A DNA stretch of 64,000 bases, from contig JARFYF010000118.1 in NCBI GenBank assembly GCA_030265395.1, forward strand, positions 17,899,070 through 17,963,069, written 5' to 3'. Positions 20,401 through 26,400 of the stretch are shown here, piece after piece. This stretch comes from Rhina ancylostomus (taxonomy: Eukaryota). A program made the position numbers. Numbering within the stretch: position 1 is the first letter of the stretch; each line of letters opens with the position of its first letter.

Positions 20401-23400
20401 ATAGTCAGCATTTCAGGTCGAGACCCTGCATCAGGACCTGCATTGGGAATTAACAATTATGTTTGAAACTGTGTGCTAAATCCTGAATTTTTAACAGGCT
20501 TGTATTAATAGAATGGCGATCATTTAGTACCTGTTTTACATTACCCCCTTTTTCCACTACCCCCCACATTGTACATATATAGCACTTTTTATAACTGTAG
20601 AACATCCTAAAGCATTTTGCAACCACTAAACAACAATAACAACACCCTGTACTTCTATCACACCTCCAAAACAACATTGTGCACCCAGAACCAAAAAACT
20701 GATAGGCTTGCTTAAAGAGATAGCTTTTAAGGAGCGAATTAAAGAAGGAAAAAGAGTTTTAGGAAGGGAATTTCTCAAGTTTGGAGACTTGGCAGCTGAA
20801 GGCATAGGCATCGATGTTGAAACAATTATAATCAGGGATTGTTAAGAAGCGAGTATTGGAGAATTATCTTTGCAATCTCCTCCAACATCAGAGAACTATA
20901 AGGCTGGAGGATCTAATGCTTTGGCAAGATTTGAAAACAAAATAGGAATTTTAAAATCAAGGTGTTATTTGAGTGGGAGAAACCTTAGATCAGCAAGTAC
21001 AGGGCTAATGGATGAACAGATCTCAGTGGGAGTCAGAATGTTAACAGCAGAGTTTTGGATGACCTCAGATTTACTGAGGAGGGAACGTAGAGACTAGCCA
21101 GGTGCGGGCTGGAATAGACAAGCCTACTCATGATGGGGATCTCAGTAGCTGATGAGCTGAGCAGCTGGAGTGTTACAGGGGGGTGCGTATAGGTGTTGGT
21201 AGTGATGTACAGAGATGTGGTTGGAAGTTCATCATAGGATTAAAAATATCACCAGACTTGCAAAGAGTCTGGTGTAATTTCAGGCAGAGGCCTGTGAGAG
21301 GGATGGAATTGTGGATAGGACCAGTGTTTTTGGCTGTCAGAATCAAATTCTCATTCTGATATTTTTTGCAACATAGAAGGAGGCCCATCAAATCTATGCC
21401 AGCTCTCAGACTAATCCCATCAATCCCATTCCCCTACATAGATCCCTACAACTTATTCTTACCAAACTCCCCCCTGATCCTCATACCACCCATCAATAAT
21501 TGGGGTATTTTACAGTGGCCAGTTAACCCACCCACACATTGGTCTTTGGAATGAGGGAACAAACTGGAGCAACCAGGGGCAACCCCTGTAGGCACATGGG
21601 GAATGTGCAAACTCCACAGAGACAGCTGTGGAGATCAGAATCATGCCCAGGTAGCTAGAGCTGTAGAACTGTGCCACCCAAGAAAGTCTGGCCAAGGAGG
21701 TCTCCAGAGTAAACCTTATGGATAGGCAAAGGGATGCCATTGAAAGGAACTCTCTGACCGCAACTTACTAGATAAGAATGGAACCAAATGAGCACAATCC
21801 CAGTCAGCTAGCCTGGTGATAAGGCTTTGGAGGAGGATGGTACATTTGATAATGTTCTAGGCTGAAGGAGGTTGAGAAGAACAAAGTCTTATCATAGGTC
21901 ATCTTGAACTTGATAAAGAACACTTCCATGAGGGAAACCGGGTTGGAGAGATTCATNNNNNNNNNNTTTGGAGAGGAAAGGGAGTTTGGAGATGGTGCAG
22001 TAATTTGGAAATAAAGGTGTTGGGGGGTGGGGAGATGCTAAGGAATAATTTTGGGCAGTGTGGTGATTAATTAGTTTTAAAGTGCAGTTACCGTTGTAAT
22101 ATGGGAAAAGCCTATTGCTGTAATCCCCTGTATTTCTGTAAGTGTAATAAAGGACAGAGAATTTACTGCCCTTTAATCTGTTTAAGATTTACTGCTCCAG
22201 CATAAAATATACCTTGAACATAATTTTTCAAATGAAGCTGACATTGGGCAGGTCAGTAACACTGCCGTGTATTTCCAATATGTCATTTAGAATTCTTCTC
22301 TGTATTTAATCAGTTCTTTAAAACTTAATATTTTCTAGCATTGCAATATAAGAAGATTGATTCAAATTCAAAGATATTGAAAACGCATTATTAGCTTGGA
22401 TATATCAAGAAAGCAGAATTGTTGTGATGTATTTTACCTCTCATATATAACTGAACAACTAAAACAGTTTATATAACAATTCAAATAAGATCAGGACATT
22501 CTTCCAGTAACTGAGATAACATTCTTCCCTCAGTAAACACCACAAAGAAATAAATCATCCAGCCATTCAATCATTTGCTCAGTATGCCATCTTGCTGGGA
22601 ATCCACATTATAGTTACAGCATTTCAAAAGCAAGATGCCTTTGGATGTCTGGGGCATCTGTTAAACTGCAATAGAAATAGAAACACCCTTTCCAGGTTTT
22701 TTAAAATAATGATTATTGCCACAAGATGGTAGAAGGCTTATCACTTTTGGGAAAAAGGCCTTAAACTGTCAAAGAGGAGGTTGGATATTTTCTTCAATGC
22801 AGGACAAATGTAGAGAGTATAACATCAGCCTCTTTCCTATAGTTTGTATCCATTGGTTACAAAGCTGAAATAATTGGAATGGCTGCCTACAAAAGATTCT
22901 CAGCAGAGGAATGGTAAAAACTGAAGGAAAATAGAGAAGAGACTTCAAATTGGAAAATGAGTAACAAAATTTTCTGACGGTTTAAAATCAGAATTATATC
23001 CAATGATATATTAAATCAGAATCATGCAATTTATAAATCATTGTACCTTGACAATTTCTAATATCTCCTGCTTGTTGATTGTGCCATTGCCATCCACGTC
23101 ATAAAGAGAAAAAGCCCATTCAAGCTTCTGCGAAGTTTTTCCAGAAGAGGTGAGGTGAAGGGCAATGATGTACTCCTTAAAATCCAAGGTCCCATCACAG
23201 TTGGTATCAAAGCTCCTGAAAACATGTTGAGCATATTCTTTGGGATCTGCATCTGGGAAGAAGCCAGAGTAGATTTGCTGAAATTGTGGCATGGTGATCT
23301 TACCATTTGGGCATTCCTTCAAGAAAGTTTGGTACCACACACAGAGCTCCTCTTCTGTGTATTTGGTGTTGAGTTTGAGATCTTCCAAAATGTCTTTGGA

Positions 23401-26400
23401 GAGGGCGCTGCTTTTGGTGTTTCCCATTTCCAGCCGCAGTGGGGCAAGAAGAAGAAAGGGCAACGGAGGACTTCTCCTAACTCAACACTGCACAGACTGG
23501 CACCAGGTGCATACTTACATGAACATATTAAAGCTTGATGGATTAGAGGGATTAGCCTTCATCTCCTTAAGGCTGACATTCACACAGACAGCAGAATTCC
23601 TATTAACAGAGCAAGCTAATTAGCTAATGGAAGTAACTGTAACTAAAGCATGAAATCCTAAAAATATCAACAAAACACATCTCCCCTTCGGTACATTTAA
23701 TTTTCCTTGCAGTGTTTTTTAACACTCATGATTACTATCAGTCCTCTGTCCCCTCTGAATTGGAATTAGAAAAATATGTTACTTTTGTTATTTGTTCTCA
23801 GGATGAGAATGATACTGGCAAGACCAGATTTCTTGCCAATGTTGAACTGCCCTGAGATGGAGGTGGTCTTTCCCCTGGAATGGCTGCAATCCTTATGGTG
23901 ACCATGCCCCCACGTTGACCCAAAGAAGGGCCTTGACTCAATGGCTATTAAAAACTGCTCAATATCCAAGATCCATTGCAGTTGGTATCAAAGCTGATGA
24001 AGACATGTTGGGAAGAACAGCACATGGTGAACTCAAACAATAGGATGTGCCTCATAAGGGGAATGGAGGTGCTGATGTTACATTGCTGCTCTAGTCCCCC
24101 TTGGAGCTAGAGGTAACGGGAAGTGGTGTGAAAGCCATTCCTACTGCTTTGCAAACTTCAGAGATGGTTTTTGATTAGAATTCTGAATTAGCTAATGTAG
24201 TCATAAGGTCATAGAGCCACAGAGTCAAGCAGCACAGAAACAGGTCCTTCCTCTCACCGCATCAATGCTGACCTTTTTGCCCACCTACACTATCCCATGT
24301 TCCCACATTAGGACCATATCCTTCCATGCCTTGCCTATTTAAGTGTCTGTCTAAGTTCCTCTTAAACGTAGTGATTGTATCTGATTCCACCACCTTCTCT
24401 GGCAGCAAGTTCCAAATATCAACCATCCTCCGTATAAAAAAACTTATTGCTCAGGTCCCCTTTAAAATTCCTCCCTCTCTCCTTAAACCTATGCCCTCTT
24501 GTTTTCGATAGCTTTCCATGGGGANNNNNNNNNNNNNNNNNNNNNNNNNNNNNNNNNNNNNNNNNNNNNNNNNNNNNNNNNNNNNNNNNNNNNNNNNNNN
24601 NNNNNNNNNNNNNNNNNNNNNNNNTATCTTCTACCCAATGGAAGAGGAGAGAAGAGAGAATGACCTGGGTGGGTGGGGTCTTTGATTATGCTGGCTGCTT
24701 CGCCAAGACAACAAGAGGTAAAGACAGAGTCCAAGGAGGGGAGGCTGGTGTCCGTAATGCACTGGGCTGTGTCCAAAACTATCTGCAGTTTCTTGCGGTC
24801 CTGGGCATAGCAGTTGCTATACCAAGCCGTGATGCATCCAGATAGGATGCTTTCTATGGTGCATCGGGAAAAGTTGGTGAGAGTCAAAGGGGACAAACCC
24901 AATTTCTTTAGCTTCCTGAGGAAGTAGAGGCACTGATGAGCTTTCTTGTCCATGGCATCTACGTGATTTGACCAGGACAGGCTGTTGATGACGTTCACTC
25001 CCAGGAACTTGAAGCTCTCAACCCTCTCGACCTCAGCACCATTGATGTAGACAGGTCCATGTGCACCGCCCCCTTTCCTGAAGTCAATGACCAGCTCTTT
25101 TGTTTTGTTGACATTGAGAGAAAGGTTGTTGTCATGACACCATTTCACTAAGCTCTCTACCTCCTTCCTGTACTCCAACACTGACTGATTGTAAAGTTCA
25201 CTCTGCGCACTTGACTGCCCCGATAACCTTTCATCCCCTTGTTTATCAAGAACCTATCTACACCTGATTTCAAATTATTCTTATACTCTCCTTCCATCTA
25301 CCTTTGAGAAAGAAAGTTCAAAACACTCAGATTTTTTAGCTTCATTTAATACTTAAATAGTCCTTTTTTATAAACAATAACCCTTGCACAGTTCTAAGTT
25401 GTCCTTCAAGAGGAAGCATCTTCTCTACCTCCACCTATCTAGACCCCTCTGGATCTTGTGTATTTCAATCAAGACACCTCTCATTCTTCCATTCACCAGT
25501 GGATACAAGTCTAGCCTTGACAATTTTTTCTCCTATGAAAACAAGGTAATAGTCTGCCAAACCTTTTCTTAATCGCTTTCAATACACCAATTTCCTTCCT
25601 TCACAAGGAGCCGAAAACTATGTGTGACAATGCGCTTTATCACTAAAAAATAACCTCCTTACTTTAGTATTCAGTTCCCCTTAGAATAAAAAAGCATTTT
25701 GTTAGCTTTCCTAATCACTTGCTGTATCTGCTTTTCAGGCTTTTATGAACCATGTACAAGGATACTCAGATCCTCTGCATCTCAAAGTTCTGCAATCTCT
25801 CACCATTTAGATAATATGGTATTTTCCTGCCAAAACGGATAATATCACAATTCATCTCATTGTAGTCCATTTGCCGTATCTTTGAATCAGAATCAGGTTT
25901 AATATCACTGATATATGTCATGAAATATATTGTTTTGTGGCAGCAGTAAAGTGCAAGACACAAAGATATAAAAATTACTATCAGTTACAAAAATAAGTAA
26001 ATAGTGCAAAAGAGGAATAACGAGGCAGTGTTCATGGGTTCATAGACAGTTCAGAAATCTGATGGTGGAGGGGAAGAAGCAGTTCCTGTAAAGTTGAGCT
26101 TACCCACTCAATTAACCTATTTACATCCCTTTTGTTCTTTCACTACTTTCCTAACTCTCACTCTCTCTCATCAGAAAATTTATTACCATATGTTTGCTGT
26201 CTTCATCAAAGTAATTTATATCAATGATTAAAAAAAAATGAGCCCTTCAGCACCAATCCCTGTGACACACCACTCATTGCAAACAGAAAAAGACCCATAT
26301 ATGCCTATTCTTGGTTAGCTGTTAGCCAGTCAATCTTTTATTCCCTCAAAACAAAGATGTGACTTAATTCGCATGGCTGAACATGCATGGAGTTCAGGTG

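What the first reader, a model, noticed from the sequence alone, without database searches (positions are those of the whole stretch)
23047..23630. Phototransduction Ca2+-sensor gene (recoverin/visinin family) embedded antisense in ADGRB1
Seen: an uninterrupted recoverin-type exon 1 with intact myristoylation and EF2/EF3 motifs lies on the - strand between the ADGRB1 ICL3 cassette exon (13925) and the TM6-7 exon (34675). Only a 10-N gap (21957-21966) separates it from the cassette exon. Known: human RCVRN is at 17p13 near GAS7, and human ADGRB1 is at 8q24 with no such nested gene that I know of. Inference: this is either the visinin (cone-type paralog) locus retained in a cartilaginous fish, or a relocated recoverin. 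From recalled sequences the residues look mixed: LYDVDGNG and LKLNTK are recoverin-like, while SSALS and EYIIALHLTSSGKT match chicken visinin. The locus therefore bears on which paralog sharks and rays kept.
Basis: partly seen in the sequence, partly recalled or inferred. Interest (0 to 1): 0.75.

Follow-up and report, generated by a model that had tools for sequence, protein, structure and literature searches.

The report
Ray recoverin first exon, doubtful placement
This is the promoter and first coding exon of a ray's ordinary recoverin gene (the calcium sensor that times the shut-off of visual pigment), and its apparent position inside the ADGRB1 gene rests on one small assembly piece flanked by gaps, so it may well be an assembly artefact.

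Summary
The exon is real. On the - strand, 23427..23047 is an open 127-codon first exon (MGNTKSS..., EF2 and EF3 loops intact, GT donor) of a recoverin-family gene. It groups with the annotated recoverins of rays and sharks: 94% to Hypanus sabinus, clade support 98/98. It is not in the visinin-type clade. However, exon 1 alone cannot statistically exclude a visinin affinity for the whole elasmobranch gene (AU p 0.44).

The + strand host is ADGRB1 of a stingray-like ray. The nesting is weakly founded:
- The exon lies on a 2,558-nt contig with N gaps on both sides.
- Codons 128-200 are nowhere in the window.
- In 5 of 5 comparable shark and skate assemblies, recoverin and ADGRB1 sit on sequences of very different length, so on different chromosomes.

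Most likely this is a misplaced contig. A lineage-specific insertion or partial duplicate is not excluded. Interest is low.

The parts
23047..23427 (-). Recoverin coding exon 1: 381 nt, 127 codons, covering the myristoylation signal, EF1 (disabled by Cys-Pro), EF2 and EF3. The GT donor follows at 23046-23045.
   Evidence: sequence, ORF, translation. (EF-hand Pfam). (94% to Hypanus sabinus recoverin-like). (tblastn residues 1-128, E 7e-80). (PDB recoverins, E 4e-68). In 14 of the 20 unnamed family ORFs printed, the family-like sequence stops at the aligned residue and continues with V plus unrelated residues (my reading by eye). That pattern is expected from reading through the same GT donor.
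23540..23555 (-). Two CTAATCC motifs 9 nt apart (CRX/OTX-type photoreceptor homeodomain sites), 113-128 nt 5' of the ATG.
   Evidence: there are 19 YTAATCC sites in the window, about the chance number, but this is the only same-strand pair within 20 nt; 8 of 300 mononucleotide shuffles give any such pair. Their role as CRX sites is recalled knowledge and was not tested.
23612..23629 (-). CATTAGCTAATTAGC, a palindromic TAATTA-type homeodomain motif about 190 nt 5' of the ATG.
   Evidence: sequence. The 12-mer CATTAGCTAATT recurs at 24186-24197. Function is inferred only.
21967..24524 (.). The 2,558-nt contig that carries the exon. It is bounded by 10 N (21957-21966) and 100 N (24525-24624).
   Evidence: 15 N runs in the window. 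(no overlap of flanks across either gap).
23954..24010 (-). Degenerate 58-nt copy (83% identity) of exon-1 segment 23172-23229, the EF2 region. It includes the window-specific Cys77 codon.
24215..24524 (-). Interspersed-repeat tail at the contig end next to the 100-N gap. The start coordinate is approximate.
   Evidence: 24317-24499 matches 18053-18239 at 72%. (sequence).
13925..14023 (+). ADGRB1 99-nt cassette exon (QMTVPLYGMALKCSKCGVISSAEVSATVTSNAM), the nearest host exon on one side.
34675..34846 (+). ADGRB1 TM6-7 exon, the nearest host exon on the other side.
   Evidence: 100% identical to ADGRB1 of many vertebrates.
46338..46982 (+). Large variable C-terminal ADGRB1 exon, used to place the species. 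It has an in-frame TAG at 46587-46589 and NN at 46536-46540.
   Evidence: 99% to Hemitrygon akajei and Mobula hypostoma ADGRB1.

Best explanation
The feature is the 5' end of the recoverin gene (RCVRN, also called S-modulin) of a myliobatiform-like ray. It consists of a photoreceptor-type promoter region and the first coding exon of 127 codons.

From established knowledge of recoverin, the full protein would work as follows. It is an N-myristoylated Ca2+-myristoyl switch. In the dark, at high Ca2+, it binds Ca2+ at EF2 and EF3, extrudes its myristoyl group, docks on disc membranes and holds rhodopsin kinase (GRK1) inactive. When light lowers Ca2+, it releases the kinase so that the visual pigment is shut off.

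Shown here: the exon, its intact motifs, and its orthology to the annotated elasmobranch recoverins.

Inferred: its position inside an ADGRB1 intron is most probably an artefact of scaffolding, not a nested-gene arrangement. A small contig ending in a repeat was probably placed into a gap of a fragmented draft assembly. The remainder of the gene (codons 128-200) would then lie elsewhere in the genome, on another chromosome as in other cartilaginous fishes.
For: Identity:
- 565 of 568 candidates had E<=0.001 and the best 120 were listed. The top hits are elasmobranch recoverin, recoverin-like or S-modulin-like proteins at 85-94%. Named bony-vertebrate recoverins score 76-83%.
- the 8 best distinct PDB sequences are all recoverin.
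- tree of 49 rows and 127 columns. The window is sister to Hypanus sabinus (99/77), inside batoids (95/82) and inside elasmobranch recoverins (98/98). Its end branch is 0.0021, so there is no sign of decay.
- only 1 residue (Cys77) is unique among 42 sequences, and the window has the recoverin state at 3 of 3 usable diagnostic columns.
- a tandem CTAATCC pair lies 113-128 nt 5' of the ATG.

Against true nesting:
- the contig 21967-24524 has N gaps on both sides, and there are 15 N runs in the 64 kb window.
- three full-length ray and shark recoverins match only at 23427-23044. Nothing credible matches residues 129-200 on either strand (best E 0.48, with stops).
-, contig length of the recoverin protein against that of the ADGRB1 protein: Amblyraja radiata 37.4 vs 121.8 Mb; Heterodontus francisci 77.8 vs 209.0; Mustelus asterias 111.2 vs 141.8; Cetorhinus maximus 55.2 vs 199.5; Scyliorhinus torazame 170.5 vs 258.0. 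The lengths differ in 5 of 5 comparable species.
- Among stingray relatives, Hypanus recoverin lies on a 65.6-Mb sequence, while ADGRB1 of Hemitrygon and Mobula lies on 224.8 and 256.4 Mb.
- an in-frame TAG and NN inside a conserved ADGRB1 exon point to draft-quality sequence.
- the contig end at the 100-N gap is an interspersed repeat, the usual cause of false links.
Against: - No direct evidence of a mis-join exists in the window.
- The 10-N gap may be a read-pair-estimated small gap. That would be a real physical link to the contig carrying the ADGRB1 cassette exon. Gap conventions are recalled, not tested.
- The contig-length comparison is a proxy for chromosome identity. No species had both genes compared within the stingray order itself, and the listing of cluster members, which could have given that, was unavailable.
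- Callorhinchus also differs (12.7 vs 125.6 Mb), but those two lengths may come from different assemblies, so I dropped it from the count.
- Exons 2-3 could lie in the gaps of unknown size (7670-7769, 3340-3439) or beyond the window start.
- On identity, AU tests on exon 1 reject neither window + visinin-type rows (p 0.13) nor all elasmobranch rows + visinin-type rows (p 0.44, delta lnL 0.93). The recoverin label for the elasmobranch gene therefore rests on percent identity, 3 diagnostic columns and the published full-length analysis (PMC6170504), not on a resolved topology here.
Confidence: 0.6

Rival explanations
1. The placement is real and the gene is whole. In this ray lineage the recoverin gene was relocated into the ADGRB1 intron, antisense to the host. 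Exons 2-3 would lie further downstream, in gaps of unknown size or beyond the window start.
For: - The scaffold as written puts the exon 9 kb from the ADGRB1 cassette exon, across only a 10-N gap.
- The exon is intact, conservative (end branch 0.0021) and has promoter-like motifs, as a working gene would.
Against: - No trace of codons 128-200 exists in the 23 kb downstream on the - strand or anywhere else in the window.
- Recoverin and ADGRB1 are on sequences of different length in 5 of 5 comparable sharks and skates.
- The stingray Hypanus has recoverin on a 65.6-Mb sequence, whereas stingray-order ADGRB1 lies on 225-256 Mb.
- Intron 1 would have to run antisense through at least three ADGRB1 exons.
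Confidence: 0.13
2. The placement is real but the copy is partial. A DNA-level duplicate of the recoverin promoter and exon 1 was inserted into the ADGRB1 intron, while the complete gene sits elsewhere. It would be a gene fragment, perhaps transcribed in photoreceptors but not encoding a functional sensor.
For: - Only exon 1 is present.
- The exon ends at its native GT donor with intron-like sequence after it, so it is a genomic copy and not a retrocopy.
- The locus shows local duplication activity: a 58-nt degenerate second copy of part of the exon and a repeated 12-mer lie 5' of it.
Against: - A non-functional fragment should accumulate changes. This one has 1 unique residue of 127 and an end branch of 0.0021, so it would have to be very young.
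- No second recoverin-like protein on an ADGRB1-sized chromosome appeared among the ray hits listed (best 120 of 565).
Confidence: 0.15
3. It is the cone-type paralogue visinin, retained in a cartilaginous fish at a locus inside ADGRB1.
For: AU tests on exon 1 alone do not reject a tree joining the elasmobranch genes to the visinin-type clade (p 0.44) or the window alone to it (p 0.13).
Against: - The exon is 62-72% identical to the 13 visinin-type rows but 76-83% to the 18 bony-vertebrate recoverins.
- 0 of 3 usable diagnostic columns show the visinin state, and LYDVDGNG occurs in 15/18 recoverins and 0/13 visinin-type rows.
- It is the orthologue of the only recoverin-family gene listed per elasmobranch species.
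- PMC6170504 (section 13) found no visinin in cartilaginous fish transcriptomes or NCBI, and placed their sequences among the recoverins.
Confidence: 0.03

Closest known systems
Elasmobranch recoverin (NCBI 'recoverin-like' of Hypanus sabinus, 'recoverin' of Amblyraja radiata, 'S-modulin-like' of Heterodontus francisci)
   Same: 91-94% identical over all 127 residues, with the same start and the same exon-1 end. It clusters inside this clade with 98/98 support.
   Different: Those proteins are 200 aa long. Here only residues 1-127 are present. Their genes lie on chromosomes other than the one carrying ADGRB1, by the contig-length proxy.
Mammalian recoverin, the solved Ca2+-myristoyl switch (PDB 2d8n, 2i94, 1iku/1jsa/1rec and others)
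   Same: E 4e-68 to 2.5e-64 over residues 1-126. The Gly2 start, the CP-disabled EF1 and the canonical EF2 and EF3 loops all align without gaps.
   Different: 76-77% identity to named mammalian recoverins. EF4 and the C-terminal segment cannot be compared because the exons are absent.
Visinin (cone-type paralogue; RCVRN2/RCVRN3 of zebrafish, 'recoverin' of birds)
   Same: Same family, same length and same exon-1 boundary.
   Different: 62-72% identity. Visinin-type rows have Q38, S60, F109 and DVD[KR]NG, where the window has E38, A60, Y109 and DVDGNG. Visinin is reported lost from cartilaginous fish (PMC6170504).
Other neuronal calcium sensors (hippocalcin, HPCAL1, neurocalcin delta, NCS-1)
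   Same: Same fold family and myristoylated N-terminus (E 2e-50 to 7e-36).
   Different: About 50-57% identity, and a clearly separate outgroup branch (100/100).

Membership tests
Recoverin (RCVRN / S-modulin) | N-terminal Met-Gly with Ser/Thr at position 6 (N-myristoylation signal) | tested here: met
   MGNTKSS is read directly. The consensus itself is recalled.
Recoverin (RCVRN / S-modulin) | EF1 disabled by Cys-Pro; EF2 (D-x-N-x-D...E) and EF3 (D-x-D-x-N...E) canonical | tested here: met
   KECPNG, DTNCDGTLDFKE and DVDGNGTINKQE. These match the Asp/Asn/Asp/Glu and Asp/Asp/Asn/Glu pattern given in PMC6170504 section 13. Pfam EF-hand_1 hits 2 stretches.
Recoverin (RCVRN / S-modulin) | Full protein of about 200 aa with a non-binding EF4 and a C-terminal segment | tested here: not met
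   Codons 128-200 were not found anywhere in the window. This is a property of the window or assembly, not necessarily of the gene.
Recoverin (RCVRN / S-modulin) | Groups with recoverins rather than visinins in a phylogeny | tested here: inconclusive
   The window lies inside the elasmobranch 'recoverin' clade (98/98) and outside the visinin-type clade (91/77). However, the backbone is a polytomy and the AU tests do not reject visinin affinity (p 0.13 and 0.44). Identity and 3 of 3 usable diagnostic columns favour recoverin.
Recoverin (RCVRN / S-modulin) | Expression in photoreceptors and Ca2+-dependent inhibition of GRK1 | not testable with these tools
   There is only a suggestive CTAATCC pair 5' of the ATG.
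Visinin | Visinin-type states at columns that separate the two paralogues | tested here: not met
   0 of 3 usable diagnostic columns show the visinin state. A fourth flagged column was a one-sequence gap artefact.
Nested (intron-hosted, antisense) gene | Guest gene and host exons on one uninterrupted stretch of DNA | tested here: not met
   N gaps at 21957-21966 and 24525-24624 separate the guest contig from both host exons. The flanks do not overlap across either gap.
Nested (intron-hosted, antisense) gene | The whole guest gene lies inside the host intron | tested here: not met
   Only exon 1 was found.
Nested (intron-hosted, antisense) gene | The arrangement is seen in related genomes | tested here: not met
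   The two genes sit on sequences of different length in 5 of 5 comparable sharks and skates. This is a proxy only, and fine-scale context could not be read.
ADGRB1 (BAI1), the host gene | Exons match ADGRB1 rather than ADGRB2 or ADGRB3 | tested here: met
   In the 120 hits listed in each, every hit I saw carrying a gene name is ADGRB1, BAI1 or AGRB1. Nine colinear exon matches lie on the + strand.

The most novel reading that the evidence does not exclude
In this stingray-like lineage, a copy of the recoverin promoter and first exon, or the whole gene, really has been inserted antisense into the ADGRB1 intron between the ICL3 cassette exon and the TM6-7 exon. That would put a photoreceptor promoter opposite a brain adhesion-GPCR gene. 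It would be a recent, lineage-specific event, because sharks and skates keep the two genes on different chromosomes.
Probability: 0.27. Interest if true: 0.4.

Novelty: already known. Interest (0 to 1): 0.2.

Why it matters
If the nesting were real, it would be a datable, lineage-specific relocation or partial duplication of a phototransduction gene. It would also be a possible case of antisense transcription through an alternatively spliced region of ADGRB1.

As it stands, the result mainly matters as a caution. The exon is the ordinary, already annotated elasmobranch recoverin, which agrees with the published view that cartilaginous fishes kept recoverin and lost visinin. The unusual location hangs on one gap-bounded 2.5-kb contig in a draft assembly.

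Tried and rejected
- Search for exons 2-3: tblastn of three full-length elasmobranch recoverins against both strands (word size 2, E up to 10) found only noise.
- Support for the joins from the sequence itself:
  - Only 1 of 15 gaps (27111-27210) shows overlapping flanks, and it is not one of the two that matter.
  - Repeat matches at 24317-24499 and 24625-24682 are colinear with 18053-18239 and 19347-19402. However, they differ in identity (72% vs 91%).
  - By translation, the two sides of the 100-N gap look like pieces of different elements. One side is a LINE ORF end with a Pfam ALKBH8_N-like match; the other is a different repeat tail.
  - So they neither support nor refute the join.
- Topology tests: these were run to exclude visinin and did not reject it. 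I report them as against my reading.
- The listing of cluster members, for accession numbers and members of the ray clusters: the call could not be made. I did not repeat it.
- Whether visinin lies near adgrb1 in bony vertebrates:
  - PMC6170504 has 0 occurrences of ADGRB, BAI1 or GAS7 in its text. Its synteny figure and supplements could not be seen.
  - Searches for adgrb1a + adgrb1b + zebrafish found 0 papers.
  - The zebrafish aGPCR repertoire paper has no occurrence of 'chromosome' by the listing.
- Literature on the nesting: 14 papers hold both 'recoverin' and 'adgrb1', and 10 were listed. By title and abstract, none concerns gene order.
- Other long ORFs: of 16 long ORFs scanned against Pfam, 14 had no match. 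One matched ALKBH8_N at E 4e-9. One had a match below its cut-off, which I ignored.
- timed out and was replaced by the lighter.
Every exon was searched on its own.

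
Full report
**What is there**

On the - strand, an ATG at 23427 opens a frame of 127 codons. It ends with AAG at 23049-23047 and is followed by GT. The product starts MGNTKSS. It carries the Cys-Pro that disables EF1 (KECPNG) and two canonical Ca2+ loops (DTNCDGTLDFKE and DVDGNGTINKQE).

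Pfam sees EF-hands (EF-hand_1 E 2.1e-15, 2 stretches). Against solved structures, the eight best distinct sequences are all recoverin (E 4e-68 to 2.5e-64), followed by HPCAL1, hippocalcin and neurocalcin.

The exon end is the family's conserved exon-1 boundary. In 14 of the 20 unnamed family ORFs printed, the family-like sequence stops at the aligned residue and continues with V plus unrelated residues. This is my reading by eye. It is the pattern expected from reading through the same GT donor.

**Which gene**

A search with exon 1 alone found 565 proteins at E<=0.001 among 568 candidates, of which the best 120 were listed.
- Elasmobranch entries come first: Hypanus sabinus 'recoverin-like' 94%, Amblyraja radiata 'recoverin' 91%, Heterodontus 'S-modulin-like' 91%, other sharks 85-87%.
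- Named recoverins of bony vertebrates follow at 76-83%.
- The only bird entry is at 62%. By Lamb & Hunt 2018, birds have only visinin.

I built a maximum-likelihood tree of 49 rows and 127 columns. The rows were:
- the window;
- 10 chondrichthyan sequences;
- 18 named bony-vertebrate recoverins;
- the bird sequence;
- 13 unnamed representatives;
- 6 unnamed outgroup rows.

The tree puts the window next to Hypanus (99/77), inside batoids (95/82) and inside elasmobranch recoverins (98/98). A visinin-type clade of 13 rows stands apart (91/77). The window's end branch is 0.0021, and only one residue (Cys77) is unique among 42 sequences. There is therefore no sign of decay.

- SSALS occurs in 4/18 recoverins and 2/13 visinin-type rows.
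- EYIIALHLTSSGKT occurs in 5/18 recoverins and 4/13 visinin-type rows.
- LYDVDGNG occurs in 15/18 recoverins and 0/13 visinin-type rows.
- At the 3 usable diagnostic columns (38, 60, 109), the window has the recoverin state each time.

Against my reading, the backbone of the exon-1 tree is a polytomy, and AU tests reject neither of two alternatives:
- window + visinin-type rows (delta lnL 13.3, p 0.13);
- all elasmobranch rows + visinin-type rows (delta lnL 0.93, p 0.44).

So the window is securely the orthologue of the annotated elasmobranch recoverin. That this elasmobranch gene is recoverin rather than visinin rests on three things: identity, the few diagnostic columns, and Lamb & Hunt 2018. 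For that paper (PMC6170504) I read the outline, sections 11 and 13 (part 1), and the found passages. With full-length sequences they found no visinin in cartilaginous fish and concluded it was lost there. No full-length visinin was available to me.

**Promoter**

Two CTAATCC motifs lie 9 nt apart on the gene's strand, 113-128 nt 5' of the ATG (23540-23555). They are the only same-strand pair within 20 nt in the window. The overall count of 19 sites is at chance level. Only 8 of 300 mononucleotide shuffles give any such pair.

A palindromic TAATTA-type motif lies at 23612-23629. That these are CRX/OTX-type and Q50 homeodomain sites typical of photoreceptor promoters is recalled knowledge, not tested here.

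**The host**

Nine colinear matches to ADGRB1 lie on the + strand:
- about 5081-5152
- 5287-5373
- 13925-14023 (a 99-nt cassette, which a bird isoform lacks)
- 34675-34846
- about 40337-40435
- about 44295-44333
- 46338-46982
- about 61459-61493
- about 61593-61701

The TM6-7 exon is 100% identical to ADGRB1 of many vertebrates. The variable large exon is 99% identical to ADGRB1 of Hemitrygon akajei and Mobula hypostoma, 94% to Amblyraja, 86-91% to sharks and 82% to Callorhinchus. The window therefore comes from a stingray-like (myliobatiform or close) ray.

**Is the nesting real?** Four observations argue against taking it at face value.

1. The exon lies on a 2,558-nt contig (21967-24524) with N runs on both sides, 10 N and 100 N. 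The window has 15 N runs in all.
2. Three full-length elasmobranch recoverins match the window only at exon 1. Residues 129-200 have no credible match on either strand.
3. The protein listings give the length of the sequence on which each protein was found. Recoverin and ADGRB1 sit on sequences of different length in 5 of 5 comparable species:

| Species | Recoverin (Mb) | ADGRB1 (Mb) |
|---|---|---|
| Amblyraja radiata | 37.4 | 121.8 |
| Heterodontus francisci | 77.8 | 209.0 |
| Mustelus asterias | 111.2 | 141.8 |
| Cetorhinus maximus | 55.2 | 199.5 |
| Scyliorhinus torazame | 170.5 | 258.0 |

   I dropped Callorhinchus (12.7 vs 125.6 Mb) because the two numbers may come from different assemblies. 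Within the stingray order I could only compare across species: Hypanus recoverin on 65.6 Mb, Hemitrygon and Mobula ADGRB1 on 224.8 and 256.4 Mb.
4. The sequence is of draft quality. There is an in-frame TAG at 46587-46589 where orthologues have Tyr, and NN in the same conserved exon. The contig end at the 100-N gap is an interspersed repeat.

None of this proves a mis-join. The 10-N gap may be a genuine short read-pair link to the contig that carries the cassette exon. Exons 2-3 could hide in gaps or lie beyond the window start. The sequence at the two gaps gives no verdict: the flanks do not overlap, and the repeat pieces are ambiguous. The call that might have given accession numbers and the stingray cluster members could not be made.

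**Verdict**

This is the promoter and first exon of the ordinary ray recoverin gene. The nesting in ADGRB1 is most likely a scaffolding artefact (confidence about 0.6). A real lineage-specific relocation or a partial duplicate remains possible (together about 0.27). The visinin reading is unlikely (about 0.03).

No paper found links recoverin and ADGRB1 by position:
- 14 papers hold both terms and 10 were listed. None concerns gene order, judging by title and abstract.
- PMC6170504 has 0 occurrences of ADGRB, BAI1 or GAS7.
- The synteny figure and supplements of PMC6170504 could not be seen and may bear on the neighbours of recoverin and visinin.

Exon 1 of recoverin and the ADGRB1 exons were each searched on their own. 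Database proteins were compared with the window by tblastn. No gap was filled. Related vertebrate loci therefore stayed unchecked.

Noticed in passing
window 46587-46589 (+), also 46536-46540: There is an in-frame TAG inside the large conserved C-terminal ADGRB1 exon, where Callorhinchus, Latimeria and Electrophorus ADGRB1 have Tyr (KSIYICDG). NN lies 50 nt upstream in the same exon. This is either a base-call error in a draft assembly or a real nonsense allele.
   Followed up: partly
window 23954-24010 (-) and 24186-24197 (-): A 58-nt degenerate copy (83%) of exon-1 segment 23172-23229 lies about 530 nt 5' of the ATG, and it includes the window-specific Cys77 codon. An exact second copy of the 12-mer CATTAGCTAATT, also found at 23618-23629, lies further 5'. 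Together they look like the remnant of an old local duplication of promoter plus exon 1.
   Followed up: partly
window 27036-27110 and 27211-27285: The 75 nt on either side of the 100-N gap at 27111-27210 are 97% identical, so the two contig ends overlap and the gap is spurious. None of the other 14 gaps shows this.
   Followed up: yes
window 24625-25253 (-) and 12990-13288 (-): These are LINE ORF fragments, the C-terminal part of a reverse-transcriptase ORF that matches Pfam ALKBH8_N at E 4e-9. One copy abuts the 100-N gap next to the recoverin contig.
   Followed up: partly
window 13925-14023 (+): The ADGRB1 ICL3 cassette exon is exactly 99 nt and frame-preserving. It is absent from a bird isoform (P0234 reads KERAG|ASLW), which is consistent with alternative splicing conserved from rays to bony vertebrates.
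   Followed up: partly
window 61494-61592 (+): A very short ADGRB1 intron of about 99 nt, with normal GT..AG ends, lies between two small C-terminal exons.
   Followed up: no
proteins P0351 and P0009 (database hits, not the window): Two bird-type visinin entries each contain two tandem copies of the exon-1 sequence in one predicted protein. This suggests tandemly duplicated or mis-assembled visinin first exons in those sources.
   Followed up: no
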